A DNA stretch of 63,847 nucleotides, taken from contig JBQCDV010000155.1 in NCBI GenBank assembly GCA_051960855.1, positions 1-63,847 on the forward strand, written 5' to 3'. Within the stretch, counting starts at the first letter, position 1. Every line of letters starts with the position of its first letter. Below, piece by piece: positions 31,964-46,621 of the stretch. The translations under genes were made by a program, and so were the position numbers. Origin of the DNA: Actinomycetales bacterium. GTDB lineage: Bacteria; Actinomycetota; Actinomycetes; JAJZTN01. The notes under the pieces were generated by a model. The model saw only the letters and a list, made by a program, of their open reading frames with translations. It had not been told where the DNA came from and did not search any database.

Positions 31964-32692
31964 CTACAACGCCAGCAGGCCCTTGACGACGGTCAGCGTC
32001 GCTCCGACGACGGCAACGACCGTGGTGGCGAGGCGGGCGCGGTCGGAGGGGACGCGGTCGTGCAGCCACTGCCCGACGAGCGTCCCGACAGCGAGAGCCA
32101 CCAGCGCGACCACGAGCACGCTGCCGGGGACGTGCGGCAGGCCCCCTTTGGCAATCAGGCTGGCGGCGTTGAGGACGCCGAAGAAGATCTGCATCGTCGC
32201 CACGAAGCGGCGGTGTTCCCACTCAGAGGACAGGGCGTAGAGAGCGACTGCGGGACCGGCGATGCCGGCGGTGACGTTGAGGAAGCCGGCTGCGGCACCG
32301 GCGGCCACGGCACCGACGGTTCCCCGCACGACACGCGCGCGCCGGACGAACGTCACCACCAGCAGGGCCAGCACCACGATCGTCCCGACGAAGACCGACA
32401 GCACGGGCGCAGGCAGGTGGCGGGCGACCCACGCCCCCGGCACCAAGGCAAGTAGGGCCGGCACGCCCAGCAGCGCTGCTCGCCGCCACTCGGTCTCCCG
32501 CCAGGTCTGCAACGCGACAACGGCATTGACGACGAGGTTGAGCAGGTTGGCGAGCAGCACGCCCTCGAACGGCCCCAGCAGCAGCACGAGGAACGGTGAG
32601 GAGACCAGGGCGAAGCCCATGCCGGTGACACGCTGCGCGCCGCCCCCGGCGAGGACGGCGCCTGCGACCACCGCGAGCGCGGCGACGGGCAC
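31964..32692 (-). CDS. TauE/SafE family sulfonate/sulfite exporter
   Basis: QRVTGMGFALV and AGIAGP repeats; about 8 TM helices; last gene of the SQ operon. Confidence 0.88.
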   Translation of the reverse strand: MPVAALAVVAGAVLAGGGAQRVTGMGFALVSSPFLVLLLGPFEGVLLANLLNLVVNAVVALQTWRETEWRRAALLGVPALLALVPGAWVARHLPAPVLSVFVGTIVVLALLVVTFVRRARVVRGTVGAVAAGAAAGFLNVTAGIAGPAVALYALSSEWEHRRFVATMQIFFGVLNAASLIAKGGLPHVPGSVLVVALVALAVGTLVGQWLHDRVPSDRARLATTVVAVVGATLTVVKGLLAL

Positions 32693-32698
32693 GGCCGG

Positions 32699-34174
32699 TC
32701 AGACCCCCAGGGCCAGGTGGCGGACGTCGGTGAACTCCTCCAGGCCGAGGCTCGCGCCCTCCCGGCCGAGTCCGGACTGCTTCACGCCCCCCATCGGTGC
32801 GAAGGCGACCGAGGGCAATGCGTCATTGACGCCGACGATGCCCACCTCCAGTCGCTCAGCGAACCGCCACGCGCGCCCGACATCCCGCGACCACACGTAG
32901 CCGGCGAGGCCCATCTCGGTCGCGTTTGCACGGCGCAGCGCCTCGTCCTCGTCCTGGATGCGGAAGACACCGGCGACGGGCCCGAACACCTCCGCGCACG
33001 CCAGCGGGGTTCCATCCGGGACGTCGGCGAGCAGCGCGGGAGCGACCCAGGAGCCCTTGTCCGGCAACGACCTGCGCTGCGTCAGGAGTCGCGCGCCCCC
33101 CTGCAGCGCATGCTCGACGACAGCGTTCACGGCGTCGACCCGCTTATCGTCGATGACCGGTCCGAGGTCGGGGACAGGGTCGGCCAGCCCGTTGCCGATG
33201 AACATGGCATCCACTCGCGCGACCAGCTTGCCGACGAACTCGTCGTAGACGGCCTCATGGACCACCAACCGGTTGGCGGCGATGCAGGACTGACCGGTGT
33301 TGCGGAACTTCGCGATGAGTGCGCCTTCGACAGCCGCGTCGATATCGGCATCATCGAGGACGACAAAGGCAGCGTCCCCGCCGAGCTCCAGCAGCGGACG
33401 GACGATGCGCGGAGCGGACTGCTGCAGGATGAGACGACCGACCTCCGTGGAGCCGGTGAAGGTGACCACGCGAACGGCCGGGTTTCCGAGCAGCGCCGCG
33501 GTCAGCTCCGGAGCTGGGCCGTGCACGAGGTTCACCACGCCGTCGGGGACACCGGCGTCGACCAGGCACCGAACCAGCTCGGTGACAGCCAAGGGCGCCT
33601 TCTCCGACACCCGAGCGACAACCGTGCAGCCGGCAGCGAGCGCGGGAGCGAGCTTGCGGGCCTGGATGGAGCACGGGAAGTTCCAGGGGGTCAGGCTCGC
33701 GACCACTCCGGCAGGCCGCCGCAGCGTCAGGTGCCGCTTGCCCGGGGTCTCGTGCGCAAGGACCTCCCCCACCGGCCGCCGCGCCTGCTCGGCGAACCAT
33801 CGGAAGTACTCCGCTGAGAACGCCACCTCCCCCTGCGCCTCCGGCAGCCGCTTCCCAGCCTCGCGCGCCAGCAGGTGAGCGATCGAGCCGGAGCGCTCCG
33901 CGATGAGGTCGGCTGCGGCAAGCAGGATGTCCGCCCGCTTGCGGGCGGGCAGGGCTCCCCACGGTGTCAGCGCGCGGGCGGCGGCGTCAGCGGCCCGAAC
34001 GGCGTCCGCGTCGCTACCCCACGCCGAACGCCCCACGAGCGAGCCGTCGGCGGGGTCGATGACGTCGAAGGCCTCGTCCCCGTCCCGCCAGTGGCCATCG
34101 ATAAGCATCGGCGCGTAGCCGATCGGGGCGGCTCCGTCTGCGCCGGGTGTCGGAATGGTGGTCGCGCTGGTCAC
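32699..34174 (-). CDS. NAD(P)-dependent aldehyde dehydrogenase (GabD/SlaB-like; probable sulfolactaldehyde dehydrogenase)
   Basis: TPWNFP, FTGSTEVG, LELGG (Glu), GQSCIA (Cys), EVFGPV, PMGGVKQSGLGREG; substrate inferred from context. Confidence 0.88.
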   Translation of the reverse strand: MTSATTIPTPGADGAAPIGYAPMLIDGHWRDGDEAFDVIDPADGSLVGRSAWGSDADAVRAADAAARALTPWGALPARKRADILLAAADLIAERSGSIAHLLAREAGKRLPEAQGEVAFSAEYFRWFAEQARRPVGEVLAHETPGKRHLTLRRPAGVVASLTPWNFPCSIQARKLAPALAAGCTVVARVSEKAPLAVTELVRCLVDAGVPDGVVNLVHGPAPELTAALLGNPAVRVVTFTGSTEVGRLILQQSAPRIVRPLLELGGDAAFVVLDDADIDAAVEGALIAKFRNTGQSCIAANRLVVHEAVYDEFVGKLVARVDAMFIGNGLADPVPDLGPVIDDKRVDAVNAVVEHALQGGARLLTQRRSLPDKGSWVAPALLADVPDGTPLACAEVFGPVAGVFRIQDEDEALRRANATEMGLAGYVWSRDVGRAWRFAERLEVGIVGVNDALPSVAFAPMGGVKQSGLGREGASLGLEEFTDVRHLALGV

Positions 34175-34214
34175 GATCTGCTCCTTGGGGAATTGCACCG
34201 TCAGAGGACAGCGA

Positions 34215-35360
34215 TCACGGAACGAGGATGTCGGGGCGGGTGCGGCCACCGACGACGACTATCGGCCAGGTGCCGTCGTGCACGAGCGGGTCGACGCCGC
34301 GACGCGTGACGAGGCAGGTGTCCTCGACCTTCCAGCCGTCACCGCTGGGGTTCCAGGCCGCGACCGCGTGCTCCGGAACGACGACACCGCTGCCCGGCGT
34401 GGCGAGGCCATCACGGGGCACGAAGCCCGACAAGCCACCCTGATGGTGCCGGTGCCACTCCTGCGGGTCGAAACCGCGGGCCGCGTACGCCGCGGTACCG
34501 GCGGCGAGGATGTCACCGAGGGTCGTACCGGCCCGGGTGGCGTCGAGGAAGGCCGCCTCCACCTGCAGCAGGGCGAAGAAGCGGTCGTACTCCCGCGCCG
34601 GCACCGGCCCGAACGACACGATTCTCGTCACGCTCGCGACCACGCCGTGGCGCCGGGCGCAGGCGACGACCATCGCGCGGCGCCCGAGGCGAGCAGCCGT
34701 CGGCAGCGGGTGACGGTGCGGGCCGATCCGCTCGTCCCCTGCTGCGAAGAGGCAGATGACGTCGCAACCGCGCTCCAGCAGCCCCTCGGCCATCCGCGCG
34801 GCGAGGTCCCACTCGGAGCTGCGCGGACTCACCTGCTGGCAGGCGACGGTGGCGGCAGCCGCAGCGTCAGCACTCACCTCGCGCAGCCGGTCGCGCTGCA
34901 GGGATGTCAACGAGCGGCGGGCGGCGGCGAGCGGGCCCGCGACGTCCACGGCGCCGGGCCACGCTCGGTCAGCGCCAACACGAACCACGGACGCGTCGGG
35001 GAACCCGTCGCTGCGCGCCTCCCACCACGGCACGACCGTCCACTCGACCGGCAGTCCGGCCAGCTCCGTGTCGGCGAGGCGGGGTGCCTCGATCGCGTTC
35101 GCGACGATGCGCAGCGACGGCGCGGTCGAAGCCGTGTCGACGACGACGTCGAAGCACGCAGCGTCGAGCGTCTGCGGCACGTGCCAGCGCGCACCCGTCA
35201 GCCAGCCGATCGTCGCGGGCTCTCGGATCAGCAGGCTGTCGACGTCAGCGGCGCAGGCAATCCCCTGCAGGGCCTCGAGCTTCTCGGGCAGGTCTCCCGC
35301 GCCGGACCGCTCCCCGACGTCGGACCGCAAGCCGGGCTGCGGCGTTCGCAGATCAACCAT
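34215..35360 (-). CDS. M24/creatinase-fold hydrolase, atypical active site
   Basis: WLTG N-domain; RHPLPT, ASVTR, HHQGG, WNPS, KVEDT; overlaps the GH31 stop codon. Confidence 0.82.
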   Translation of the reverse strand: MVDLRTPQPGLRSDVGERSGAGDLPEKLEALQGIACAADVDSLLIREPATIGWLTGARWHVPQTLDAACFDVVVDTASTAPSLRIVANAIEAPRLADTELAGLPVEWTVVPWWEARSDGFPDASVVRVGADRAWPGAVDVAGPLAAARRSLTSLQRDRLREVSADAAAAATVACQQVSPRSSEWDLAARMAEGLLERGCDVICLFAAGDERIGPHRHPLPTAARLGRRAMVVACARRHGVVASVTRIVSFGPVPAREYDRFFALLQVEAAFLDATRAGTTLGDILAAGTAAYAARGFDPQEWHRHHQGGLSGFVPRDGLATPGSGVVVPEHAVAAWNPSGDGWKVEDTCLVTRRGVDPLVHDGTWPIVVVGGRTRPDILVP

Positions 35361-37668
35361 GACGAACGACGCCCGCGATCCGGAGGCCGCCCGGCTGCGG
35401 CCCGTCGACGGTGGCGCTCTCCCCCGTCACAGTGACGCGAACGGGCAGGCCGTCGAAGCCGACGAGGTCGACGGTTGCAGGAGCTTCGCCGTAGGTGTGC
35501 AACTCCCAGGGCGCATCCAGCAGATCGTCGGTGTTGCGCGTCTGGGGTGTCACCGTGACGCGGGGCAGGACGGCACCGTCGCGCACGAGCAGCGGCAGGC
35601 GCTCGAGCGGGACGCTCTCCTGCACCCAGGCTGGTCCCTCGTAGCGCTGGCCCGTGACGAGGTCCGTCCAGCCACCAGGCGGCACGCGGAACCGAACGGG
35701 CGCCTCGCCCACTGAGTCATCGAAGACCGGAGCCACGGCAAGGTCGGAGCCGAGCAGGAACTGGCCGTCAATTCCAGCCGCTGACGGGTCCTCGTCGACC
35801 ATCGACAGCGGCCGCATCACCGGCCAGCCGTGAGCCGCGGACTCGTGGGCAACCTGCCAGAGGTAGGGCAGCAACGAGTAGCGCAGCCGCACCCAGTCCC
35901 GCGCGATGCCGAGGGCGCGGTCACCGAAGGCCCACGGCTCCCGGGGCCGCAGCCCGTGAGCGCGCATCAGCGGCGACAGCGCACCGAGCTGGGTCCACCG
36001 GACGTACAGGGCCGGAGTGAGCTCCGGGCCGAAGAAGCCGCCGATGTCATGGCTCCAGAAGCCCGGAGCCGAGACCGCGTAGGACAGGCCGCCCCGCACG
36101 GTCGCCCGCATGCCGGCGACGCTCGACTCGGCGTCTCCACCCCACTGACCCGGGTACCGCTGCGAGCCGGCCCAGCCGCTGCGGCCCCACACGAGGGGCG
36201 AGCGGCCGGTGAAGTGTGCGATGGCCTCGCTGACCGCAGCGTTGTAGTACAGCGGGTAGAGGTTGTGCGCCTGCTGCGGTGGCGTCCCGTCCGCCAGCGC
36301 AACGTCGTCGGGTAGCGCCTCGCCGAAGTCGGTCTTGAACACGGCGACGCCATCGGCGAGGAACTCCTCGTGCAGGCCCTGCCACCAAGCCTTGGCCTCG
36401 GGGTTGGTGAAGTCGATGAGGGCGCGGGGTCGACCATCGGGGGTCGGCGTCTTGCGGATCGAGGCGATCCCGCCGTCGACGGTCCGGACGAGGTACCCCT
36501 TCGCCTCCGCCTCCGAATAGCGAGGTGACGTCGGGTCGAGGTAGGGCAACTCCCACAGCGAGAGCCGGATCCCGCGCTTCGCAAGCTCATCGAGGAACTG
36601 CTTGCGGTCGCCGAAACGGTCCCTGTTCCAGAGGAAGTCGCAGTTGAGCCGGTCGACGATGAGCCAGTCCGGATCGAGGTGCAGCACGTCGCAGGGCACC
36701 TCGTGCTCGCGCATGCTGTCGGCGACGTCGAGCATCTCGGTGTTGGAGTGGTAGCGGCAGCGGCCCATCCAGTAGCCGAATGCCCACACCGGAGGCACCG
36801 GCGGACGCCCCGTCAGGGCCGTGTAGCCCTCGAGCCGCTCGGCCAAGGTCGGGGCGGCGACGACGTAGAGGTCCAGGACGTCGTCGCCCACCGTGAGACC
36901 AAGGGCCGAAGGCCGGGTGTGGCCGACGTCGGCGGTGACGACCGCACCGGTGTTGAGGAAGCCGGCGTAGCCGCTGCTGGAGTGCCAGACGGGCACCGGC
37001 TTGTAGGCCTGGCCGGTGCCGGTGCCGAGCGCGTCCTCGCTGCGCAGCAGCAGCCGCTGACCGTTCTTGACCAGCCGTGAGAACTGCTCGCCGAAGCCGG
37101 TGATGTCCTCGTCGCTACCCAGCTCGAGATGCAGCGTCGTCCCCTGCTCGTCCAGCAGCACAGGCGGTGCCATCGGCAAGCCGGCCGCCTGCCGCAGCCG
37201 CTGCGCGGTGCGGAGCAGCACCGAGCCGGTCTGCGGGTCCTCGACGGTCACGGTGAAGGGACGGCGACCGATCCGCACGCGCACGCGCGGTGCGGCGACG
37301 ACCACCTCGTCGTCCGACTCCTCAACCGACGGTGCCACAGGCTCCGGCTGGGCATCGACGACGATCCCCGCACCGGTGCCGTCGTCGGCCAGAGCCCGAT
37401 GGCCCCCGGGAGCGAGCACGAGGCGCACTGTCCGGGTGGCCGCCACCGTCACGCGCAGCACCATCGGTGTGGCGTCGGCGGCGGGCAACGACAGGTCGGG
37501 CAGGTTGGGCAGGGTGGTCTCGATGCCCTGCTCGGCCAGCGGCTCTCCCGTCAGCCAGCCGGGCATCAGCCCCACGCGGACAGCCGGCAACGCGACGAGA
37601 GCGAGCTCGACGCCGTTCGGCAGGGTCCGGACGGACTCGACACGACGGACGATGCGCTGGTCGGACAC
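35353..37668 (-). CDS. Glycoside hydrolase family 31 (YicI alpha-xylosidase-like; candidate sulfoquinovosidase)
   Basis: GFGEQF...NGQ, QAYK.VP, PPVWAFG.W, FKTDFGE (nucleophile), WGGD, WSHDIGGF (acid/base), LMRAHG, REPW; GTG after GAAGGGA. Confidence 0.9.
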   Translation of the reverse strand: MSDQRIVRRVESVRTLPNGVELALVALPAVRVGLMPGWLTGEPLAEQGIETTLPNLPDLSLPAADATPMVLRVTVAATRTVRLVLAPGGHRALADDGTGAGIVVDAQPEPVAPSVEESDDEVVVAAPRVRVRIGRRPFTVTVEDPQTGSVLLRTAQRLRQAAGLPMAPPVLLDEQGTTLHLELGSDEDITGFGEQFSRLVKNGQRLLLRSEDALGTGTGQAYKPVPVWHSSSGYAGFLNTGAVVTADVGHTRPSALGLTVGDDVLDLYVVAAPTLAERLEGYTALTGRPPVPPVWAFGYWMGRCRYHSNTEMLDVADSMREHEVPCDVLHLDPDWLIVDRLNCDFLWNRDRFGDRKQFLDELAKRGIRLSLWELPYLDPTSPRYSEAEAKGYLVRTVDGGIASIRKTPTPDGRPRALIDFTNPEAKAWWQGLHEEFLADGVAVFKTDFGEALPDDVALADGTPPQQAHNLYPLYYNAAVSEAIAHFTGRSPLVWGRSGWAGSQRYPGQWGGDAESSVAGMRATVRGGLSYAVSAPGFWSHDIGGFFGPELTPALYVRWTQLGALSPLMRAHGLRPREPWAFGDRALGIARDWVRLRYSLLPYLWQVAHESAAHGWPVMRPLSMVDEDPSAAGIDGQFLLGSDLAVAPVFDDSVGEAPVRFRVPPGGWTDLVTGQRYEGPAWVQESVPLERLPLLVRDGAVLPRVTVTPQTRNTDDLLDAPWELHTYGEAPATVDLVGFDGLPVRVTVTGESATVDGPQPGGLRIAGVVRHG

Positions 37669-37670
37669 TG

Positions 37671-38486
37671 CTATCCCTTCACGGAGCCGGCGGTCAGGCC
37701 GGCGACGAAGTAGCGCTGCAGGAAGACGTAGGCGACGACGACGGGCGCAGAGGCGACGATGACGCCGGTGAACAGCAGCGGGTAGTTGGTGAGGAACTCG
37801 CCCTGGAAGTCCAGCAGAGCCAGGGGAAGCGTCTTCTTGCTCGGGTCGTGGATGAACAGCAGCGGGTACAGCAGGTCGTTCCACTGGATGACGAACAGGA
37901 AGATCGCGGTCGCGGCCAGCGACGGCAGGGCCACCGGGATGATGATCGAGCGGAAGGTCTGCCAAGGATTCGCGCCGTCGATGGAACTGGCCTCGTAGAG
38001 CTCACCCGGCAGGGTGCGCATGAAGCCGGTGAGGATGAACACCGCGACGGGCAGGGCCACGACGATCTCGATGAGGATGAGACCGACCAAGCTGTCGAGC
38101 AGGTGCAGCCGCTGGAAGAGGACGTACTGCGGAATCATGTTCGCCTGCGCCGGCACGGCCATCCCGATGACGAGGAAGCCGAAGATCAGCCAGCCGCGCC
38201 AGCCGGGAATGCGGGCGATGCCGTAGGAGGCGAAGCTGCCGATCGCAAGCGTCAGGACGACGGCGCAGCCGGTGACGATGACGCTGTTGAGGAAGGCTCG
38301 GCCCATGTCCGCATCGCCGAGGACGGTGCCGTAGTTGTGCGGAGACAGCGAGCTCGGCAAGCCGAAGGGGCTGGCGAACAACTGCTTCGTCGTCTTGAAC
38401 GATCCCGTCAATACGACGATAAGCGGGATGGCGACGAGCAGTGCGTAGATGGCGAGGATGACTCGTCGCCCGAGGTTGTGGGTCAT
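37671..38486 (-). CDS. Carbohydrate ABC permease (CUT1)
   Basis: ELYEASSIDGA EAA loop, IQWNDLLYP; 6 TM helices. Confidence 0.93.
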   Translation of the reverse strand: MTHNLGRRVILAIYALLVAIPLIVVLTGSFKTTKQLFASPFGLPSSLSPHNYGTVLGDADMGRAFLNSVIVTGCAVVLTLAIGSFASYGIARIPGWRGWLIFGFLVIGMAVPAQANMIPQYVLFQRLHLLDSLVGLILIEIVVALPVAVFILTGFMRTLPGELYEASSIDGANPWQTFRSIIIPVALPSLAATAIFLFVIQWNDLLYPLLFIHDPSKKTLPLALLDFQGEFLTNYPLLFTGVIVASAPVVVAYVFLQRYFVAGLTAGSVKG

Positions 38487-38505
38487 GGGGGTCAGTCCTT
38501 CCTCG

Positions 38506-39507
38506 TCAGGTGGACGGCTGCGTCAGCCGCACCGCACGCCGCTGCACGAAGCTGACGACGGCGATGATGAGCATGAACACGATCGACTCGGCGGCGGCGT
38601 AGCCGAACTGCGAGTTGGTGAACGTCGTGTAGATGCGCGTGGACAGGATGTCCATCGAGTTCTTCGGCGGGTTGCCACCGAGACCGAGGATGAGGTCGAA
38701 GGCCTTGAACGACTGGACGGTCGTGTAGGCAATGACGATCGCGGTCGCCGGTGCCACCATCGGCCAGGTGACGTAGCGGAAGCGCTGCCAGCGGCCGGCC
38801 CCGTCGAGGTCGGCCGACTCGTAGAGCTCGGCCGGGATCTGCTGCAGCCCCGCGATGAAGATGACCATCAGCTGGCCCGTGTGCGCCCACACCTGGCACA
38901 GCGCCACCCAGTAGATCGCCTGCCGCGGATTCCCGAGGAAGGCGCTCTGCATCCCGTCGAGCCCGACAGCTCCGAGGGTCTGGTTAATCAGCCCGAAGTT
39001 CGGGTCGTACATGAACTTCCAGACAAAGGCCACCGACACCGACGACAAGATCGTGGGCAGGAAGTAGAGCGACCGCAGCGCCGTGGACGACCGGGAGTTG
39101 CGCTGCAGCAGGAGCGCGAGCAGCAGAGACAGGCCGGTCTGCAGGATCACCACGACCAGCAGGAACTTCACGTTGTTGAACACCGCGTTGCGGAACAGGT
39201 CATCGTTGGTCGCGATGTTGGTGAAGTTGCCGAGCCCCACGGACTTGAAGGCGGCACTGAAGCCGTCCCAGTTGGTCACCGAGTACTCGAAGGCCTGCAG
39301 GGTCGGCAGCGCGAAGAACACGACGTACAGCGCGACGGCCGGCAACGGGAAGAGCCACATCGCTGGGTGGACCCGGGTGGGCCCCCGGCCCCGGAAGCGC
39401 ACACCACCACGGGGACGCGGAGTCTCCGGGTAGGTGGCCGCCGGGGCGGGGACGCCGCCCTTGGGATCAGGAGCTGAGGTCGCCCTCTTCGGCACGGAAA
39501 CTGGCAT
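38506..39507 (-). CDS. Carbohydrate ABC permease (CUT1)
   Basis: AGLQQIPAELYESADLDGA EAA loop, FKAFD. Confidence 0.93.
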   Translation of the reverse strand: MPVSVPKRATSAPDPKGGVPAPAATYPETPRPRGGVRFRGRGPTRVHPAMWLFPLPAVALYVVFFALPTLQAFEYSVTNWDGFSAAFKSVGLGNFTNIATNDDLFRNAVFNNVKFLLVVVILQTGLSLLLALLLQRNSRSSTALRSLYFLPTILSSVSVAFVWKFMYDPNFGLINQTLGAVGLDGMQSAFLGNPRQAIYWVALCQVWAHTGQLMVIFIAGLQQIPAELYESADLDGAGRWQRFRYVTWPMVAPATAIVIAYTTVQSFKAFDLILGLGGNPPKNSMDILSTRIYTTFTNSQFGYAAAESIVFMLIIAVVSFVQRRAVRLTQPST

Positions 39508-39516
39508 GAGGAGCCC

Positions 39517-40833
39517 CTACTGGCTGCGCTTCTGGTCGACGATCTTCTGGGCGTCAGCGGCGGCCTGCTGGGGGCTCTTGCCACCGACGACCGCGATGCA
39601 CGAGCCCTCGACGGCGTTGCGGATGTCGAGGTTGTTGAACTGGAACCGCGGTGCGAGCAGCGTCTTCTTCTGCAGCCACGGACTGATCGCCTTGAGGTCC
39701 GGGTTGGTGTAGTCGACGTCCTTCACGCTGACGTTCTGGCTGGTGCCGTTGGCGTACACGCCGGCGACCTCGGGCTGCGACAGGTACTGGAGCCAGGCGA
39801 GCGCCGCACCCTGGTTCTTCGACGCACTGTTGACGCCGAGCACGAAGGTCGCGTTGTAGATGCCCTCGTACTTCGCCTTGTCAGCGCTCGTCGTGATCGG
39901 CGAGAGCAGGTTCATCGGGAACTTTGCACCGAGTCCGCGCACGGCGGCGATGTGGTACGACCCAGTGGCGAGCATGCCAGCCTTGCCGGTGGCGAAGATC
40001 TGCTGGCAGGGCTCGACGGCGGTGCCCGTGCTGTTGGGCTGGAAGTACGGCCGCAGCTGCGCGTACTGCTGCAGCGTCTTGAGGAACCAGTCATCGGTGC
40101 ACTTGTACTCGCCCGACTCGATCTTGGCGCACATATCGTCGGAGGGAGCGTTGTTCATGACCATGGAGTTGAACAGCTGACCAGCGTTGCCGGCGTCGCC
40201 GCCGGGCCACGCGATCGGGACCAGGCCCTGGGACTTCAGCTTGTCGCACAGGGCGAGGAAGCTGTCCCAGTCCTTCGGTGGCGTGCCGCCGTCGGCCTTG
40301 CTGATGATGTCCTCGTTGGTCACCGGCATGTTGAAGACGACCTGGTAGGGGAAACCGAGCTGCTTGCCGTCGACTTTGCCTGAGGAGATGAGAGACGCCT
40401 CGTAGTTGGAGACGAACGGCTGGCTCGACAGGTCCGTGTAGATGCCCGCCTTGACCATGTCGACGAACTGGGCACCGCGGAAGGCTGTGAAGACGTCGCC
40501 GACCGCGCCTCCGCGGATCCGCTGGAGGGCCGAGGACTGGTAGTCATTCGAGGGCGAGATGTCCTGCGTGACCGTGACGCCGGGGTTCTTCTTCTGGAAG
40601 TCAGCGATCATCTTGTCGAAGACGGCCTTGTCCTCCGCCCGCCAGTGGGCGAAGGAGACCTTGCCTGACGCCTTTGCACCGGACGCCGGCGCGGACGGCT
40701 TGGCCGCCCCTGTTGCGCCACCGCTGCTGCTCCCACCGGGGCCAGCGCACGCCGCCAGCGCGAGTCCCGCGCCGGTGGCGCCGAAGAGCTTCAGCAGCTG
40801 GCGTCGCGACAGGGCGTTTTCGTCGTTGCTCAT
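39517..40833 (-). CDS. CUT1 ABC substrate-binding lipoprotein (Tat-type signal)
   Basis: LSRRQLLK + LAAC lipobox; extracellular solute-binding family features. Confidence 0.92.
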   Translation of the reverse strand: MSNDENALSRRQLLKLFGATGAGLALAACAGPGGSSSGGATGAAKPSAPASGAKASGKVSFAHWRAEDKAVFDKMIADFQKKNPGVTVTQDISPSNDYQSSALQRIRGGAVGDVFTAFRGAQFVDMVKAGIYTDLSSQPFVSNYEASLISSGKVDGKQLGFPYQVVFNMPVTNEDIISKADGGTPPKDWDSFLALCDKLKSQGLVPIAWPGGDAGNAGQLFNSMVMNNAPSDDMCAKIESGEYKCTDDWFLKTLQQYAQLRPYFQPNSTGTAVEPCQQIFATGKAGMLATGSYHIAAVRGLGAKFPMNLLSPITTSADKAKYEGIYNATFVLGVNSASKNQGAALAWLQYLSQPEVAGVYANGTSQNVSVKDVDYTNPDLKAISPWLQKKTLLAPRFQFNNLDIRNAVEGSCIAVVGGKSPQQAAADAQKIVDQKRSQ

Positions 40834-40891: not shown

Positions 40892-42391
40892 TCACCACTC
40901 GATGACGCGAATGCCGCAAAGGTCGGCGGCTTGGCGCAGCGCGGGCCGGACGTCCGTCCAGGCCAGCACGGTGTGGTGCGGGAAGCCGCCGGTCACCAGG
41001 CCGGCAACGAACTCCGCTGCCGGAGCCGACAACCGGACGGCCGCGGTGTTGCCCTGGAACCGGTTGGGCTCCGGGATCGACTCTCCTGACGCGATCAGCA
41101 GGCGCAGCCCGGTGGCGCTGTCCGGGTCTGGATCCTCGGTAATCCGAGCCATCACCACAGGGCCGGTCTTGAGCGGGAAGTTGCCCGCGACGCCGATCTT
41201 TCGGTTGCAGTGCACGGACTGGGTCGCCGCCTCAGGGTCGGCGGCGAGCGACGTCGCCGCCGAGCCGCAGTGCCAGACGCGGACGACATTGGCGTCGGCA
41301 TCGAGGTCGACGGTGTCGACGAGATAGGTCGTGCCGCTGCCCAGCGCCTCCAGCAACAGCATGGTCACGGTGCCGTAGACATCGCGCTCGCACGCCGTGG
41401 GGACGCCCTCGTCAGCCAAGCGCGACAGCGCGGAGCAGGGGCAGACACCTAGCTGGGTAGGAAACTCCGGCCAGCAGCGCACCGCGATCCCAGACAGGAC
41501 GTCTGCTGCGCTCCAGCCACGCAGCGCGCTAGTGACTGCGGCGAAACGCCGCACCTGCTCGGGGTCGAGGTCAGCGAGACTCGGCCGGGCCGCCAGCGAG
41601 GCGCTCTGCTCGGCGTCGACGCCGGCGTCCGGCACCGCGCGCGCCAGGTCGAAGGCGTCCTCGACGCCGATCTCGTCCACCTGGAGGCCGAAGACGTCGG
41701 AGAGGACGGCGGCGTCGTACTGGCTGGGGGTGAAGCCGGGAGGGGCGTCCCCGACCAGGCCGATCCGCTTGCCGCGCAGCGAGTCCAAGGCCGGGCGCAC
41801 GGACTCGGAGTCCGCACGCTCGCGCTGCTCCGTCGGAAGGGCCGGCGCCTCGGGAAGCTGGCCGCGCAGCGCAGCCTGCAGCGCCGCCCGCACGTGCGGC
41901 TCGCCCGGGTCGCCGTAGAGTAAGCGCACGGCGCCTCCCGCGCGCACGAGGGCGTGGCCGAAGAGGTTCGCCCCACACAGGGAGTTCAACCAGAGCCGGT
42001 CCCCCACCGGACCGGGCTCGCGGAAGGACCAGAGCAGGACGGGCCGGTCGAGGTCGGAGTAGAGCCGTAGTGCGGGAGTCGCGTCGGAGAAGGACGCGCA
42101 CACGTTGAGGTAGAGCTCGGCATCCGCGCCGACGAACGACGCCGCGGCCTCGACATCCTCCGGCGTCATGACGAGCTCGGTCGGTCCGCTCACCTGCGCG
42201 CCCAAGTCGGTCAGCAGCTGCCGGGCGGCCTCGGCGCGCTCACGTGCGGTCTCAACGGCGAAGGTGGGACGGGCGGTGGCCACCATGACGACGCGGGGAC
42301 CGTCGCCGGCGGCGTTCGGGGAGTGGGTGAGCGACGACGGCGCGCTCGGCACGGTCGCAGCGGCCTCGGCGGGAGTCGTGGGGGCGGTCAT
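40892..42391 (-). CDS. L-fucose/L-arabinose-isomerase-fold sugar isomerase (SqvD/SftI-like; probable sulfoquinovose isomerase)
   Basis: NSLCG, AVRCWPE, ACERDVYG, WHCG, FPHH; ATGA overlap with the aldolase; substrate inferred from context. Confidence 0.8.
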   Translation of the reverse strand: MTAPTTPAEAAATVPSAPSSLTHSPNAAGDGPRVVMVATARPTFAVETARERAEAARQLLTDLGAQVSGPTELVMTPEDVEAAASFVGADAELYLNVCASFSDATPALRLYSDLDRPVLLWSFREPGPVGDRLWLNSLCGANLFGHALVRAGGAVRLLYGDPGEPHVRAALQAALRGQLPEAPALPTEQRERADSESVRPALDSLRGKRIGLVGDAPPGFTPSQYDAAVLSDVFGLQVDEIGVEDAFDLARAVPDAGVDAEQSASLAARPSLADLDPEQVRRFAAVTSALRGWSAADVLSGIAVRCWPEFPTQLGVCPCSALSRLADEGVPTACERDVYGTVTMLLLEALGSGTTYLVDTVDLDADANVVRVWHCGSAATSLAADPEAATQSVHCNRKIGVAGNFPLKTGPVVMARITEDPDPDSATGLRLLIASGESIPEPNRFQGNTAAVRLSAPAAEFVAGLVTGGFPHHTVLAWTDVRPALRQAADLCGIRVIEW

Positions 42392-43320
42392 CGCGCGGAC
42401 ACTGCCTCGTCCACGACCTGGCCGAGCCGCTGCAGCCGCGCGACGGCGTCCTGCTCGAGGGAGGCCCGCACGTCGGGGGCAGCGATGCACGCGCGCCAGA
42501 CCGCACGCCCCGCCAGGAAGCCGGAGGCGCCCGCTTGGATTGCAAGCTGGACGGCTCGGGGGAAGACGTCGTCCTTAACGCCGGAGGAGAGCACGACCCA
42601 GGGTGAGGCGACCGCCTCGGTGATCTGGGCGCACTGGCGCGACACCTCGGCCTCGTCACCCTCACCGTGCAGTGGTACCTCGGCCTTGTACAGGTCCACC
42701 CCGAGGTCGCCGAGCTCACGGGCCGCGGCAAGGATGCCGTCGCCCCAGTCCCAGGCGCGGCCGTCCAGCGGCGGGCGGGAGACGGGCTCGATGATGCTGA
42801 CGAGCCCGGCTGTCTGGCAGCGAGCACGGAAGTCCTCGACCATCGCCGTGCGCTGCTCGGGGTCACCGTCTGGTCGCCAGATGACCAGGAGCTTCGCGGC
42901 GACCGCGCCCTGGGCCGCGTAGTGCTCGAGGTCCACCGCGTCGTCGATGACCGCGTCGCCGACGACCTCCTGCGGTCCGGGGATGAAGTGGTCGGCCGCG
43001 ACGATGAGGCCGCACCCGGGGGCGACGACGCTCTGCTCGAGGGCCTGGTCAAGCACGAACTGCTTGTCGAGCAGGACGGCTGAGGCGTAAGGCGTGAGGA
43101 TGCGGGCGGCCTCGAGCTTGAAGGCAGTGACATCAGCGTCGGGGATGTCGCGCTGCTGCTGCTCGGCGAGCATGCCGCGCAAGGCCTCGCGCTGGTCGAC
43201 GGCCAGCATCGCGAAGGCGCCAGAAGGGCGACGCAGGTCGTCCAGTGAGGCCCGAGAGGTCCGGTCGTGCGCGGGTGCCACGTCGGTCGAGCTGGGGGAA
43301 GCGGTCAGAGGGTCGGGCAC
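42388..43320 (-). CDS. yihT: Sulfofructose-1-phosphate aldolase (class I)
   Basis: SGAFAMLAVDQREA, FK..AA..L.PYASA.L.D.QF, LIVAAD.FIPG, KLLV.WR.D, GLVSIIEPV.RPP, DLYK.E.PL.G.G, PWV.LSSGV...FPRAV..A..AGASGFLAGRAVW; matches the E. coli YihT pattern as I recall it. Confidence 0.88.
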   Translation of the reverse strand: MPDPLTASPSSTDVAPAHDRTSRASLDDLRRPSGAFAMLAVDQREALRGMLAEQQQRDIPDADVTAFKLEAARILTPYASAVLLDKQFVLDQALEQSVVAPGCGLIVAADHFIPGPQEVVGDAVIDDAVDLEHYAAQGAVAAKLLVIWRPDGDPEQRTAMVEDFRARCQTAGLVSIIEPVSRPPLDGRAWDWGDGILAAARELGDLGVDLYKAEVPLHGEGDEAEVSRQCAQITEAVASPWVVLSSGVKDDVFPRAVQLAIQAGASGFLAGRAVWRACIAAPDVRASLEQDAVARLQRLGQVVDEAVSAR

Positions 43321-44237
43321 GGTGAGCTCTCCTCGAGGGTCGCGGCCAGGGCAGCCGCCTCGTCGTGAGTGGGGATCCGGGATCGGCCGTCGAGACCGCG
43401 GCAGGACAGGGCGGCGACGGCGTTGGCATAAGCCAGCGCGCGGGGCAACGGCTCGCTCCGCGTCGCGGCTGCGACGAGCGCACCGTGGAAGACGTCGCCC
43501 GCACCGAGGGTGGAGACGATCTCGAGGGAGGCGCCTGGCACCTCGGCCCGCTCACCGGCGGCACTTCGTCCGACCGAGCCGCGGCCCCCGCGAGTGGCGA
43601 CGACGAGTTGGGCGCCGTCATCCAGGCTGCGCGCCAGGGCACTGTCGAGCTCGTCCACTCCGTAGCGCGCCAGCAGCGACTCCTCGGTCGGGACGTCCAG
43701 GGCGACGCCGCGCGGCTGGTACCCGGGGATGGTGTTGCCGCAGTCGACGCTGACCTGAGCGTCGGTGGACACCGCGTGACGCAGTGAGGTGAGAGCCGGC
43801 CAGCCCAGGTGGTCGACGTGGACCCAGCCTGCCGCGGCGAGCAGCTCGGCGACCGGGCCGGTTGCCTCGAGGGCCAGCGGCGGCTGCGGCCGCGTGCAGA
43901 TCGCCCGGGTCCCTCGGCCGCGGTCCACGATGACGACACTGACGCCGGTCTGGGCGCCCTTTCGGCGGGTGACCGCGCTCACCCCGACGCCCTCAGCGAC
44001 GAGGTCGGCGACGAGCCGCTCCCCGATCTCGTCGTCCCCGACCACTCCCACGAAGTGAACGTCGCGGATGCCCAGGCGCGCAGCGGCAACTGCGGCCGTT
44101 GCTGCCGGACCTCCGCCTGCGACGACGATGTCGTCGGCCACGAGCCGCTCGTCGGGAGCGGGGGTGTGGTCCGTCAGGGCGATGGTGTCGAGGGTCGAGA
44201 CCCCGAGGAACACGACCGGGCCCACTGTCACTGTCAC
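43305..44237 (-). CDS. yihV: PfkB sugar kinase, YihV-like sulfofructose kinase
   Basis: GGGPAATAAVAAARLG, GVVGDD, STLGAGDVFHGA; adjacent to yihT. Confidence 0.78.
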   Translation of the reverse strand: MTVTVGPVVFLGVSTLDTIALTDHTPAPDERLVADDIVVAGGGPAATAAVAAARLGIRDVHFVGVVGDDEIGERLVADLVAEGVGVSAVTRRKGAQTGVSVVIVDRGRGTRAICTRPQPPLALEATGPVAELLAAAGWVHVDHLGWPALTSLRHAVSTDAQVSVDCGNTIPGYQPRGVALDVPTEESLLARYGVDELDSALARSLDDGAQLVVATRGGRGSVGRSAAGERAEVPGASLEIVSTLGAGDVFHGALVAAATRSEPLPRALAYANAVAALSCRGLDGRSRIPTHDEAAALAATLEESSPCPTL

Positions 44238-44261
44238 CGTCCTTCTGCCGAGCGAATGATG

Positions 44262-44293
44262 AGACAGTAACAACGAATGTTGGAAAGTCAACA
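44262..44293. promoter_or_regulatory. SQ-operon promoter with overlapping palindromic operator candidates
   Basis: Minus strand TTGACT-N16-TACTGT; overlapping CAAC-GAAT-GTTG (44271-44282) and TGTTG-GAAAGT-CAACA (44278-44293). Confidence 0.6.
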
Positions 44294-44397
44294 CTCTCGC
44301 TACGATGAACTTCGGGGTTCACGGCGCAGGCGCGTTGGCACCTCTCGGGAGCGGGCAGCGTGCCACGCTGTCGCGAGAAGGTAGGAGGTCGCGTGCG

Positions 44398-45225
44398 ATG
44401 AGCACCGAGGTGTGGCCCGAGCAGGCCGTGGCCGGCGGCTCGATGCGGTACGACCGCGCGCCCGACCGCCGTGCCCGCATCCTCGAGACGGTGGCGGCGC
44501 ACGGCTTTGTGTCCGTCACTGCCCTGGCCGCAGATCTGGGCGTCTCGGACATGACCATCCGGCGCGACCTTCGACGCCTGTCCGCCGCCGGCGAAGTCCG
44601 CGTCTTCCACGGCGGGGTCAGCCTCCCCCACGCCACCCTGCGAACCTCGGAGTTCGTCTCACGGGCGGAGTCGAATGCCGAGGCCAAGAGCCGCGTCTCG
44701 GAACGGGCAGCACAGCTGGTGCGCGAGGACGACGTCGTAGCTATCGACGCGGGGACGACCGCCTTCGGAGTCGTCACTGCTCTGCCACCGAGCTTCCGCG
44801 GGACTGTCGTCACGCACTCTGTGCCGGCGATCCAGCACCTCCTGCATCGCCCGGACGCCCGGCTGGTGGGGCTCGGCGGCGAGCTGTACCCGCCGAGCCA
44901 GGCCTTTGTCGGCCAAGCGGCCGTCGACCAGGCGCAGCACGTCCGGGTGCGCGTATTGATCCTCGGCGCCGCAGCGGTCGACGCACGCGGCGTCTATGCA
45001 GAGGCCGATGTCGAGCGCAGCGTCAAGCTCGCCCTCATCGACGCCGCCGACGACGTGGTGCTCGTCGTCGACTCGACGAAGTTCACCGCGAGGGCGTCCG
45101 TGCGGCTGTGCGGACTCGAACGCCTCACACACCTCGTCACCGACGCTCCGCCTCCCCCGGCGCTGCGGCGCCAACTGCGTCAGGACGCCGTCGAGGTCAT
45201 CCTCGCGGCGCCCGCCACCGCCTGA
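44398..45225 (+). CDS. DeoR/GlpR family regulator (CsqR-like position)
   Basis: RRARIL..V...G.VSV..LA..LGVSDMTIRRDL, IDAGTT, DSTKF. Confidence 0.93.
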   Translation: MSTEVWPEQAVAGGSMRYDRAPDRRARILETVAAHGFVSVTALAADLGVSDMTIRRDLRRLSAAGEVRVFHGGVSLPHATLRTSEFVSRAESNAEAKSRVSERAAQLVREDDVVAIDAGTTAFGVVTALPPSFRGTVVTHSVPAIQHLLHRPDARLVGLGGELYPPSQAFVGQAAVDQAQHVRVRVLILGAAAVDARGVYAEADVERSVKLALIDAADDVVLVVDSTKFTARASVRLCGLERLTHLVTDAPPPPALRRQLRQDAVEVILAAPATA

Positions 45226-45785: not shown

Positions 45786-46508
45786 ATGGCGTTGTCAGCG
45801 GAGGCGATCACCGGGACCTTCCGGGCGATCGACCTCGCGGGCGTCTTCGCCAACGCCGTTCTGGGTGGCGTGCTGGCTCGACGTGAGCGCCTCGACCCCG
45901 TGGGCTTCGCAGCGCTCGCCATCCTCTCGGGGCTCGGGGGCGGACTGCTGCGCGACACCCTGCTGCAGCACGGCACGCCGATCGCGCTGACCGACTACGC
46001 CTACATCCTCACCGCGCTCGCAGGCGCGGTTGTAGCGTTCGCGATGGACCTCGAGGGACGGCTGTGGGACCGGGGCTTCCCCTGGGTCGACGCACTGGCG
46101 CTCGGTTGCTGGGCCTCAGCCGGCGCCCAGAAGACCCTGGGCGTCGGGCTTGGGTGGCTCCCGGCTGTGCTGCTCGGCACCATCACCGCGGTCGGCGGTG
46201 GGGCCGTGCGCGATGTCGTGCTGCGCCGGGTGCCGGCGATCTTCGGTGGCGGCACCACGCTGTACGCCACGTCGGCGCTACTCGCCAGCGGTGTGATGGT
46301 CGCCCTCGACTACGCCGGTCTCGTCACTGTCGGCCTCGTCGCCGCCACCGTCACCGGAGCCGGCCTGACCCTCCTCGCGCGCCACCGGGGCTGGCAGCTG
46401 CCGGAGGCGAACCCCTGGCGCCCAAGCACCGTGCTCGTGAGCAGGCGGGGCCGCCGCCCCAGGCGCGAGCTCCGCCGCCGGCGTCGGCCCACGCGCCGAC
46501 GTTCGTGA
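45786..46508 (+). CDS. TRIC/UPF0126 family membrane protein
   Basis: DLAGVFA, GLGGGLLRD.LL, DALALG, TAVGGG.VRDVVL. Confidence 0.88.
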   Translation: MALSAEAITGTFRAIDLAGVFANAVLGGVLARRERLDPVGFAALAILSGLGGGLLRDTLLQHGTPIALTDYAYILTALAGAVVAFAMDLEGRLWDRGFPWVDALALGCWASAGAQKTLGVGLGWLPAVLLGTITAVGGGAVRDVVLRRVPAIFGGGTTLYATSALLASGVMVALDYAGLVTVGLVAATVTGAGLTLLARHRGWQLPEANPWRPSTVLVSRRGRRPRRELRRRRRPTRRRS

Positions 46509-46621
46509 GGAGGTGGTCAAGGCAAGCGGGCCGCCGACGGGACATACCCCTCGTGCCGGACTCCGTCGTCGACTGCCGCGGGCAGACTCAGCCTGACGAC
46601 GCGGAGCCACAAGGAGCTCAG

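What the first reader, a model, noticed from the sequence alone, without database searches (positions are those of the whole stretch)
34215..35360. M24-fold protein lacking most metal ligands, embedded in the SQ operon
Seen: where aminopeptidase P has D...D (D.G...Y.SD.TR) this reads VVACARRHGVVASVTR, and where it has EPG this reads WNPS; only HHQGG and KVEDT remain. It overlaps the GH31 stop by 8 nt. Established: metal-free members of this fold (creatinase; ectoine hydrolase is related) hydrolyse amidines/amides, and no M24 protein is part of the SQ pathways I know. Inference: a new gateway hydrolase unmasking an N-linked or acylated sulfosugar (or deacylating sulfolipid-derived material), meaning the operon's real substrate may be an undescribed SQ conjugate. 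This is the best candidate for novel enzymology here.
Basis: partly seen in the sequence, partly recalled or inferred. Interest (0 to 1): 0.74.

Follow-up and report, generated by a model that had tools for sequence, protein, structure and literature searches.

The report
Metal-free M24-fold protein in sulfoquinovose operons
A peptidase-shaped protein that has lost its metal-binding site is a fixed, so far undiscussed member of the gene cassette that actinobacteria use to break down the plant sulfosugar sulfoquinovose, so it probably does an unassigned job on the sugar itself rather than cutting peptides.

Summary
ORF 34215-35360 (-) encodes a 381-aa two-domain prolidase/creatinase-fold protein (AF2 pLDDT 89.9; Foldseek TM 0.66-0.75). 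The M24 metal ligands read V232, S243, G309, N337; only E346 survives, so probably 4 of 5 are lost, not 3.

It is not a decaying gene. About 25 residues are near-invariant across roughly 700 clusters at 50% identity.

Linkage to sulfoglycolysis is very strong. 62 of 80 genomic loci carry SQ genes beside it, and 34 carry the full collinear 11-gene cassette.

The gene persists whichever partners vary: sulfoquinovosidase (GH31 or SqgA), isomerase (SqvD or YihS), sulfolactaldehyde enzyme (SlaB or YihU) or importer (ABC or MFS). It also lies in the Arthrobacter U41 and Cryobacterium TMT2-4 clusters that hold the characterised SqgA. No paper I could search mentions it.

More distant paralogues sit in uronate/aldarate-type clusters. 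That argues for an acidic-sugar substrate, not peptides and not a special SQ conjugate.

The cassettes lack YihR and leave no room for an SqvB gene. My best guess, at moderate confidence, is a sulfoquinovose anomerase or ring-opening enzyme. The function is unproven.

The parts
34215..35360 (-). M24-fold (creatinase/prolidase-like) protein, 381 aa, metal ligands lost. N-domain is about residues 23-150, pita-bread domain about 153-381.
   Evidence: PF00557, E 6e-9. (ligand mapping). (AF2 pLDDT 89.9, pTM 0.88). (Foldseek: prolidases, creatinase and DoeA, E 1e-13 to 1e-17).
34623..34670 (-). VVACARRHGVVASVTR (residues 231-246). Positions of the two Asp ligands are now V232 and S243. C234, R236, G239, T245 and R246 are conserved.
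34434..34448 (-). HHQGG (305-309), near-invariant in the whole family. G309 occupies the position of the ligand His of prolidases.
34317..34355 (-). WNPS...KVEDT (336-348). N337 replaces the Glu ligand. K344, E346 and D347 are retained; E346 is the only surviving ligand position.
34701..34718 (-). HRHPLP (215-220). H217 aligns with the conserved 'PH' histidine of prolidases. R216 and H217 are near-invariant.
35353..37670 (-). GH31 glycosidase directly upstream, its stop overlapping the M24 start by 8 nt. It is a distinct actinobacterial clade lacking the YihQ sulfonate motif. The true start is uncertain; the ORF runs to 37965 but would then overlap the permease gene.
37671..40833 (-). ABC importer: substrate-binding protein (39517-40833) and two permeases (38506-39507, 37671-38486).
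40892..42490 (-). SqvD/SftI-type (FucI-like) sulfoquinovose isomerase.
   Evidence: NF048012, E 9e-82, 275 bits, below the cutoff of 700. (Fucose_iso_C).
42388..43320 (-). YihT-type class I sulfofructose-1-phosphate aldolase.
   Evidence: DeoC/LacD. (48% identity to E. coli YihT, E 9e-78).
43305..44294 (-). PfkB-family sugar kinase (YihV-type sulfofructose kinase).
44305..45225 (+). Divergent DeoR-family regulator (CsqR-like).
32699..34249 (-). Aldehyde dehydrogenase (GabD/SlaB-type, presumed sulfolactaldehyde dehydrogenase) directly downstream.
31964..32692 (-). TauE/SafE sulfonate exporter (presumed sulfolactate export).

Best explanation
**What it is.** The gene encodes a metal-independent, repurposed member of the creatinase/prolidase (M24, pita-bread) superfamily. 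It is an integral component of the actinobacterial sulfo-EMP sulfoquinovose (SQ) cassette.

**Shown here.**
- The fold.
- Loss of the dinuclear metal site.
- Strong purifying selection on a new set of His/Arg/Lys/Glu/Gln residues at the old active site and in the N-domain.
- Near-obligate genomic linkage to the SF kinase and class I SFP aldolase together with an SQ isomerase (SqvD or YihS).
- Independence from the type of sulfoquinovosidase, isomerase, SLA enzyme or importer.

**Inferred.**
- The substrate is the free anionic sugar (SQ, possibly sulfofructose), bound by the conserved Arg/His pocket.
- The residues specific to the SQ clade (R116, S243, T64/C69/D71, P315) tune the pocket for the sulfonate.
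- The reaction is acid/base chemistry at the anomeric centre, that is anomerisation or ring-opening of the alpha-SQ released by the glycosidase, to feed the isomerase.
- It would thus fill the slot that YihR (E. coli) or the enigmatic SqvB/SftX (Firmicutes) occupies in other SQ clusters.
For: **Linkage**
- 62 of 80 loci from GTDB species genomes have SQ genes within 10 kb. Every homologue at 50% identity or more does.
- 34 loci carry the complete 11-gene cassette. 33 are collinear, with no internal gap over 450 bp, so there is no room for a YihR or SqvB gene.
- No YihR homologue occurs in any of the 80 loci.

**Independence from variable partners**
- With GH31 in the window and many other loci.
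- With SqgA in Arthrobacter H5 and U41, Cryobacterium TMT2-4, Pseudarthrobacter and Nanopelagicales.
- With YihS instead of SqvD in L041, L046 and L073.
- With YihU-like SLA reductase instead of ALDH, and with MFS instead of ABC import.

**Position**
- In the E. coli-like Actinomycetaceae cluster (YihS 61% identical to E. coli's) the order is yihV-T-S-MFS-GH31-M24-TauE-YihU-DeoR. M24 sits directly after the glycosidase, where yihR sits in E. coli.
- In Nanopelagicales it directly precedes SqvD.

**Literature**
- The actinobacterial clusters 'lack identifiable SQ mutarotase' (PMC8873060).
- SqvD-type clusters normally carry SqvB or YihR, and uncatalysed SQ mutarotation is slow (PMC9594981).

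**Sequence**
- Core residues are near-invariant in 142 representative clusters: E91, R94, W112, R216, H217, R246, H305-H306-Q307-G308-G309, R316, N337-P338, K344, E346, D347.
- Residues specific to the SQ clade include R116 and S243, which sits at a former ligand position.

**Paralogue context**
- Non-SQ paralogues lie in acidic-sugar clusters: KdgD, a talarate/galactarate-dehydratase-like enzyme, glycerate kinase, TRAP plus KduI/IolB, GFO/IDH/MocA dehydrogenases and LacI regulators.
- No peptide transporter or peptidase context was seen.
Against: - There is no biochemical evidence of any kind.
- The mutarotase assignment rests on 'one orphan protein, one orphan function' logic. The same logic was applied to DUF4867 SftX/SqvB, and no mutarotase activity was detected there (PMC11968277).
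- A mutarotase is not strictly essential.
- The window's own genome has a YihR-like aldose 1-epimerase 29 kb away (4634-5554, 33% identity to E. coli YihR).
- A 380-aa two-domain protein with so many invariant charged residues is elaborate for an anomerase.
- The superfamily's ancestry is hydrolytic, which fits a hydrolase or lactonase better.
- In the family tree one non-SQ sequence (L060) branches next to the main SQ clade, so SQ linkage is not a perfectly clean clade.
- I could not inspect model coordinates. Pocket geometry and the role of R116 are untested.
Confidence: 0.38

Rival explanations
1. It is a metal-free hydrolase (creatinase/ectoine-hydrolase style, His-activated water). It removes an N- or O-linked group from an imported SQ conjugate (acylated SQGro, N-linked sulfosugar) before or after the glycosidase acts.
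For: - The superfamily's known metal-free members are hydrolases (creatinase and DoeA are among the Foldseek hits).
- H217 aligns with the conserved 'PH' histidine.
- The gene is translationally coupled to GH31.
- This GH31 lacks the canonical YihQ sulfonate-recognition residues, so its substrate may be unusual.
Against: - The gene persists where GH31 is replaced by SqgA, whose orthologues cleave plain SQGro/PNP-SQ.
- It persists in streamlined Nanopelagicales clusters.
- The matching cluster type comes from strains isolated on free SQ (the match is inferred).
- Paralogues lie in uronate/aldarate clusters with no amide or acyl step.
- No sequence-level hit to creatinase. DoeA matches only 33 N-terminal residues at E 0.2.
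Confidence: 0.18
2. It is a sugar-acid lactonase or lactone isomerase family. The non-SQ members open aldono/aldaro-lactones made by neighbouring dehydrogenases. The SQ clade acts on a sulfonated lactone or related cyclic intermediate not yet recognised in these bacteria.
For: - It recurs next to GFO/IDH/MocA or SDR dehydrogenases and sugar-acid dehydratases or KdgD in the non-SQ loci.
- Hydrolytic ancestry of the fold.
Against: - The SQ cassettes are sulfo-EMP. They contain no SQ 1-dehydrogenase, sulfogluconate dehydratase or KDSG aldolase, so no lactone is expected.
- The window cassette has no sugar dehydrogenase at all.
Confidence: 0.12
3. It is a non-catalytic pseudoenzyme. It would be a sulfosugar-binding partner, scaffold or regulator (as Ebp1 and Spt16-N are non-catalytic pita-bread proteins) that modulates the glycosidase, isomerase or transporter.
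For: - Loss of the catalytic metal site.
- Spt16-N domains appear among the fold matches.
- No chemical step is missing from the pathway (PMC11968277 reasoning).
Against: - Near-invariance of a dense His/Arg/Lys/Glu/Gln constellation at the former active site across about 700 clusters is typical of catalysis or tight ligand binding.
- Its partners vary between lineages, so no constant protein partner other than the kinase and aldolase exists.
Confidence: 0.1
4. It is an ordinary metal-dependent Xaa-Pro peptidase that happens to be in the operon.
For: Database names ('M24 family metallopeptidase', 'Xaa-Pro dipeptidase') and the weak PF00557 hit.
Against: - Four (at least three) of five metal ligands are replaced, in every family member.
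- No NCBIfam peptidase model hits.
- Linkage is to sugar genes only.
Confidence: 0.02

Closest known systems
Bacterial/archaeal prolidases and Xaa-Pro aminopeptidases (M24B; e.g. Deinococcus radiodurans 5cdl/5giu, Pyrococcus 1pv9, M. ulcerans PepE 4ege)
   Same: - Same two-domain architecture (Creatinase_N-like N-domain plus pita-bread C-domain) and similar length.
- They are the best sequence hits (profile E 2.7e-11) and the best structure hits (TM 0.66-0.75).
- Retained positions include the conserved 'PH' His, the TR of SDxTR, the first His of HxxGH and the final ED.
   Different: - Identity is only 13-20%.
- The dinuclear metal ligands are replaced by V232, S243, G309 and N337.
- A new invariant set (R216, H306, Q307, R316, K344, and N-domain E91/R94/W112) is absent from prolidases.
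- The genomic context is sugar catabolism, not peptide catabolism.
Creatinase (creatine amidinohydrolase; 1chm, 1kp0, 7yto) and ectoine hydrolase DoeA/EutD (6twk)
   Same: - Same fold (Foldseek E 1e-13 to 1e-16).
- They are precedents for members of this fold acting on small non-peptide molecules. Creatinase does so without metals (established knowledge).
- This family's N-domain is strongly conserved, as would be expected if it contributes to the active site as in creatinase (the creatinase point is from my own knowledge).
   Different: - No sequence-level relationship was detectable to creatinase. DoeA matches only a 33-residue N-terminal stretch at E 0.2.
- No amidine or guanidine substrate is expected in the pathway.
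- Equivalence of catalytic residues was not testable without coordinates.
SQ mutarotase YihR (aldose 1-epimerase, PF01263)
   Same: - Proposed functional slot: an accessory gene next to the sulfoquinovosidase in sulfo-EMP clusters.
- It is absent from all 80 loci that carry the M24-like gene.
   Different: - Unrelated fold.
- The activity of the M24-like protein is untested.
SqvB/SftX (DUF4867 cupin metalloprotein) of Firmicutes sulfo-SFT/TK/EMP2 clusters
   Same: - A conserved accessory protein of SQ clusters with no assigned step, proposed to be a mutarotase or ring isomerase.
- The wider family also sits in other aldose/ketose clusters (PMC11968277).
- Same kind of puzzle.
   Different: - Unrelated fold, and metal-dependent.
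- Found in Firmicutes rather than Actinomycetota.
- SftX showed no detectable mutarotase activity, a warning for the analogous guess here.

Membership tests
Peptidase family M24 (Pfam PF00557; Xaa-Pro peptidase/prolidase, M24B) | Pita-bread catalytic domain recognisable by sequence and structure | tested here: met
   PF00557 at E 6e-9, 36.4 bits against a cutoff of 23. AF2 model pLDDT 89.9. Foldseek top hits are prolidases at E 1e-17, TM 0.66-0.75.
Peptidase family M24 (Pfam PF00557; Xaa-Pro peptidase/prolidase, M24B) | Five conserved ligands (Asp, Asp, His, Glu, Glu) of the dinuclear metal centre | tested here: not met
   V232, S243, G309 and N337 replace four of them. Only E346 is kept. The same holds in 142 family representatives.
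Peptidase family M24 (Pfam PF00557; Xaa-Pro peptidase/prolidase, M24B) | Xaa-Pro peptide bond hydrolysis | not testable with these tools
   Needs an enzyme assay. No NCBIfam peptidase model matches.
Creatinase / creatine amidinohydrolase | Two-domain creatinase/prolidase fold without a metal centre | tested here: met
   Foldseek hits 1kp0, 1chm and 7yto at E 1e-13 to 6e-16. Ligands are lost. A Creatinase_N hit was seen in the Nanopelagicales orthologue.
Creatinase / creatine amidinohydrolase | Sequence membership and creatinase active-site residues | tested here: not met
   No creatinase chain reaches E <= 1 in the sequence or profile search of the PDB. Catalytic-residue equivalence could not be checked without coordinates.
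Ectoine hydrolase DoeA/EutD | Full-length sequence similarity | tested here: not met
   Only profile positions 13-45 match 6twk/6twj, at E 0.2. The structural similarity is generic to the fold.
Sulfo-EMP sulfoquinovose catabolic gene cluster (as an accessory component) | Conserved co-location with SQ isomerase, SF kinase and SFP aldolase across genomes | tested here: met
   39 of 51 loci with full flanks have all three genes. 34 have the complete 11-gene cassette. The gene is also present in clusters holding the characterised SqgA.
Sulfo-EMP sulfoquinovose catabolic gene cluster (as an accessory component) | Induction by SQ, or a requirement for growth on SQ | not tested
   No RNA runs were examined, and only DNA metagenome runs hold the stretch. 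The published AK01 proteomics tables were not retrievable by protein.
SQ mutarotase (function; YihR-type PF01263 or SqvB-type PF16161) | Homology to a known mutarotase family | tested here: not met
   Different fold. Only PF00557 hits. The claim is functional analogy only.
SQ mutarotase (function; YihR-type PF01263 or SqvB-type PF16161) | Catalysis of SQ anomer interconversion | not testable with these tools
   Needs NMR exchange spectroscopy or a coupled assay.

The most novel reading that the evidence does not exclude
This protein founds an uncharacterised, roughly 700-cluster family of metal-free pita-bread enzymes devoted to acidic sugars. Its SQ clade performs a so far unassigned step of actinobacterial sulfoglycolysis. 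That step is either a new, convergently evolved fold for a sulfoquinovose anomerase or ring-opening enzyme, or a genuinely new reaction on a sulfosugar intermediate or conjugate.
Probability: 0.6. Interest if true: 0.75.

Novelty: new variant of a known kind. Interest (0 to 1): 0.62.

Why it matters
**Scale of the pathway.** Sulfoquinovose is made on a scale of about 10 billion tonnes a year. Its breakdown pathways are treated as fully assigned.

**An unaddressed gene.** Every actinobacterial sulfo-EMP cassette examined here carries one conserved gene with no assigned role. These include the clusters of strains whose sulfoquinovosidase has been crystallised. The searchable literature does not mention this gene.

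**What assigning it would do.**
- It would either explain how these bacteria manage without the known mutarotases, or add a new step or substrate to sulfoglycolysis.
- It would give function to a wider family of about 700 sequence clusters currently mislabelled 'M24 metallopeptidase', 'Xaa-Pro dipeptidase' or even 'antitoxin VapB'.
- It would be another example of a peptidase scaffold recruited to carbohydrate chemistry.
- It would be a useful marker gene for actinobacterial, including freshwater acI, SQ degraders.

Tried and rejected
- The genome search and the fetch from genomes were shut. I could not test whole-genome presence or absence of YihR/SqvB, or survey SqvD clusters that lack the M24 gene. 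The complementary-distribution test is therefore one-sided.
- Model coordinates are not exposed. I did no pocket, dimer-interface or docking analysis.

**Literature**
- Searches for sulfoquinovose with M24, peptidase, creatinase or aminopeptidase found nothing relevant.
- The Arthrobacter papers and their supplements do not name the gene, so published proteomics could not be used.
- The aquatic SQ papers mention neither Nanopelagicales nor the gene.

**Hypotheses rejected or weakened**
- I considered that the protein replaces the sulfoquinovosidase in clusters lacking GH31. I rejected this because those clusters carry SqgA.
- I considered strict coupling to the FucI-like isomerase SqvD. I rejected this because three loci have YihS instead.

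**Uninformative or not independent**
- A prephenate-dehydratase-M24 fusion (P0157) is probably a gene-calling or unrelated fusion and told me nothing.
- The FastTree phylogeny did not give a clean single SQ clade.
- Earlier scan notes were first-reader notes only and added no independent evidence.
Full report
**Observation**

The minus-strand ORF 34215-35360 encodes a 381-aa protein. Its codon-position GC (0.76/0.56/0.88) is typical of a real gene in this 70% GC window.

- VVACARRHGVVASVTR at residues 231-246
- HHQGG at 305-309
- WNPS at 336-339
- KVEDT at 344-348

The start codon overlaps the GH31 stop in the sequence ATGGTTGA, an 8-nt overlap at 35360-35353. Pfam gives only a weak Peptidase_M24 hit (E 6e-9, 36 bits). 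No NCBIfam model matches.

**Metal ligands**

Two independent HMMER alignments to the Deinococcus radiodurans prolidase 5cdl agree (single sequence; 24-sequence profile, E 2.7e-11):

| M24 ligand | Residue here |
|---|---|
| first Asp | V232 |
| second Asp | S243 |
| His (second His of H-x-x-G-H) | G309 |
| first Glu | N337 |
| last Glu | E346 (kept) |

H305 aligns with the non-ligand first His of that motif. The site has therefore most likely lost four of five ligands. A dinuclear metal centre is not possible.

**Fold**

An AlphaFold2 model built from the family alignment is confident (mean pLDDT 89.9, pTM 0.88). Foldseek against the PDB returns small two-domain prolidases and Xaa-Pro peptidases first (E about 1e-17, TM 0.66-0.75, 13-20% identity). 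Creatinases (1kp0, 1chm, 7yto) and ectoine hydrolase DoeA (6twk) follow closely at E 1e-13 to 1e-16. No solved structure is a close relative.

**Not a decaying gene**

Among 24 homologues at 53-74% identity, more than 80 columns are invariant.

A profile search of 1.84 billion cluster representatives finds 703 clusters at E <= 1e-30. In 142 full-length representatives the following residues are near-invariant:
- E91, R94 and W112 in the N-domain
- R216-H217 and R246
- H305-H306-Q307-G308-G309
- R316, N337-P338, K344, E346 and D347

The former ligand positions read V/S/A/I, S/N/A, G and N throughout. The whole family is a metal-ligand-free offshoot of M24 with a new, strongly constrained His/Arg/Lys/Glu/Gln constellation. 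Unusually for prolidases, its N-domain is also conserved.

**The operon**

A DeoR regulator (44305-45225, +) is transcribed divergently from the following minus-strand genes:
- PfkB kinase (43305-44294)
- YihT-type class I aldolase (42388-43320; 48% identical to E. coli YihT)
- SqvD/SftI-type FucI-like SQ isomerase (40892-42490)
- ABC substrate-binding protein and two permeases (37671-40833)
- GH31 (35353 to about 37670)
- the M24-like gene
- GabD/SlaB-type aldehyde dehydrogenase (32699-34249)
- TauE (31964-32692)

This is the hybrid sulfo-EMP cassette described for Actinobacteria, which yields sulfolactate (PMC8873060, PMC9594981).

**Linkage across genomes**

A scan of one genome per GTDB species returned 156 relatives, of which 80 loci were kept. 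I ran tblastn with the window's operon proteins against them.
- 62 of 80 loci have SQ genes within 10 kb.
- Every homologue at 50% identity or more does.
- 39 of 51 loci with full flanks have the kinase, aldolase and isomerase.
- 34 have the complete 11-gene cassette. 33 are collinear, with no internal gap over 450 bp.

The taxa span Motilibacteraceae, Intrasporangiaceae/Dermatophilaceae, Pseudonocardia, Micromonospora, Actinomadura, Streptomyces, Kribbella, Georgenia, Micrococcaceae, Actinomycetaceae and freshwater Nanopelagicales.

**Which partners vary**

The M24-like gene stays while its neighbours change.
- *SqgA in place of GH31.* This holds in Arthrobacter sp. H5, Arthrobacter sp. U41, Cryobacterium sp. 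TMT2-4, Pseudarthrobacter and Nanopelagicales. Each has a Gfo/Idh/MocA SqgA-type NAD-dependent sulfoquinovosidase. The Cryobacterium gene matches the CrSqgA sequence printed in the supplement of Kaur et al. 2023. That paper biochemically tested ArSqgA of strain U41 and CrSqgA, and crystallised ArSqgA.
- *YihS in place of SqvD.* Three loci have a YihS-type isomerase, 61% identical to E. coli YihS.
- *Reductase and MFS import.* Some loci have a YihU-like reductase and an MFS importer instead of ALDH and ABC.
- *Gene order.* In the E. coli-like Actinomycetaceae cluster the order is yihV-yihT-yihS-MFS-GH31-M24-TauE-yihU-deoR. M24 sits directly after the glycosidase, where yihR sits in E. coli. In Nanopelagicales the gene opens the operon directly upstream of SqvD.

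So it is not a substitute sulfoquinovosidase. It is not tied to one isomerase type. It is kept even in streamlined genomes.

**Missing function**

No YihR homologue occurs in any of the 80 loci. The compact cassettes leave no room for a DUF4867/SqvB gene.

Published work notes that these actinobacterial clusters lack an identifiable SQ mutarotase (PMC8873060). It also notes that SqvD clusters elsewhere usually carry SqvB or YihR, and that uncatalysed SQ mutarotation is slow (PMC9594981).

The M24-like protein is therefore the only cassette protein without a role, and anomerisation or ring-opening is the only known accessory step without a protein.

**Paralogues**

The 38-45% identical relatives without SQ neighbours sit in other carbohydrate clusters, mostly for acidic sugars:
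- Agromyces: a bona fide KdgD (390 bits), an aldehyde dehydrogenase, an SDR and LacI.
- Kocuria: a Gfo/Idh/MocA-DUF6807 fusion, a talarate/galactarate-dehydratase-like enolase, glycerate kinase and ABC sugar permeases.
- L060: LacI, a TRAP binding protein and KduI/IolB.
- Microlunatus: Gfo/Idh/MocA, ThuA and LacI.

None is near peptide transporters or peptidases.

These paralogues keep the core residues but differ at a few positions that are fixed in SQ-linked members:

| SQ-linked members | Most non-SQ paralogues |
|---|---|
| P62, T64, C69, D71 | S, A, V, A |
| R116 | L, V or I |
| S243 | N |
| P315 | G |

R116 and S243 (a former ligand position) are candidate sulfonate-recognition residues. 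This is inference. I could not access model coordinates.

**Interpretation**

*Shown.* This is a metal-free M24-fold protein under strong constraint. It is an integral member of actinobacterial sulfo-EMP cassettes, and its wider family is associated with sugars, mostly acidic ones.

*Inferred.* It binds the free anionic sugar and performs acid/base chemistry at the anomeric centre (anomerase or ring opening), feeding the isomerase with the alpha-SQ released by the glycosidase.

I give this specific mechanism about 0.38. The main caveats are these:
- The same orphan-protein logic was applied to DUF4867 SftX/SqvB, and no mutarotase activity was found there (PMC11968277).
- A YihR-like aldose 1-epimerase exists 29 kb away in this window.
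- The superfamily's ancestry is hydrolytic.

The rivals are:
- a lactonase-type activity (0.12)
- a non-catalytic binding protein (0.10)
- a true Xaa-Pro peptidase (0.02, effectively excluded by sequence)

**Comparison with known families**

By fold and weak sequence similarity it belongs to the creatinase/prolidase superfamily. It fails the defining ligand test for M24 metallopeptidases. It has no sequence-level membership in creatinase or DoeA. It is unrelated to YihR or SqvB, so any equivalence to those is functional only.

No paper in the searchable library mentions an M24 protein in SQ clusters. Public annotations call the family 'M24 family metallopeptidase', 'Xaa-Pro dipeptidase' or, oddly, 'antitoxin VapB'.

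**Verdict**

The peptidase reading is excluded.

The conjugate-hydrolase inference is not supported but not excluded. The function remains open, with anomerase or ring opening the best current guess.

Novelty: a new variant of a known kind, namely a new functionally unassigned subfamily of a known fold in a well-studied pathway. Interest: 0.62.

The window stretch is held in rhizosphere and soil metagenome runs.

Noticed in passing
window 35353-37670 (-), and GH31 genes of L002-L046: The cassette's GH31 keeps the catalytic Asp pair (KTDFGE, WGGDAE). It lacks the canonical YihQ 'QQRWY' sulfonate-recognition residues; Q262/Q288/R301/W304/Y508 read H/D/R/T-or-C/F. Its best NCBIfam hit is alpha-xylosidase YicI (463 bits, below the cutoff of 606). 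It looks like a distinct actinobacterial GH31 clade fixed in SQ cassettes, either a divergent sulfoquinovosidase or a glycosidase with another specificity.
   Followed up: partly
window 4634-5554 (-): Stand-alone aldose 1-epimerase (PF01263, E 2e-49), 33% identical to E. coli YihR. It lies beside LexA and a HhH-GPD repair gene, 29 kb from the SQ operon. It could supply mutarotase activity in trans.
   Followed up: partly
L073 10780-10810 (Pseudarthrobacter sp. HLT1-5): The M24-like gene is split by a frameshift in this genome, which uses YihS instead of SqvD. Both halves are well conserved, so this is a sequencing error or a very recent inactivation.
   Followed up: partly
window 46064-47044 (+): A 326-aa ORF whose C-terminal 130 residues are a rifampin ADP-ribosyltransferase (Arr) domain (NF033144, 136 bits against a cutoff of 130). 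An N-terminal extension of about 190 aa has no family hit.
   Followed up: no
L051 13367-15871 (+) (Arthrobacter sp. H5): A TOTE conflict-system primase (AEP-TOTE) fused to a ResIII/DEAD helicase lies directly downstream of the SQ cassette.
   Followed up: no
protein P0157 (666 aa, from the representative search): Apparent fusion of a prephenate-dehydratase-like N-terminal half to an M24-like domain of this family. It may be a gene-calling artefact.
   Followed up: no
L070 214-3329 (Kocuria) and relatives L069, L074, L075, L079: A non-SQ paralogue is translationally coupled to a Gfo/Idh/MocA-DUF6807 fusion protein. The cluster also holds an enolase-superfamily dehydratase, glycerate kinase, DUF993 and further Gfo/Idh/MocA genes. 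This is an uncharacterised acid-sugar pathway that could reveal the family's general chemistry.
   Followed up: partly
window 30885-31904 (-): A DUF2157 membrane protein lies just downstream of TauE on the same strand. It has no counterpart in the related loci, so it is probably not part of the cassette.
   Followed up: partly
family-wide annotation: Many JGI records and one NCBI/UniRef record name this family 'antitoxin VapB'. This is evidently a propagated mis-annotation.
   Followed up: no
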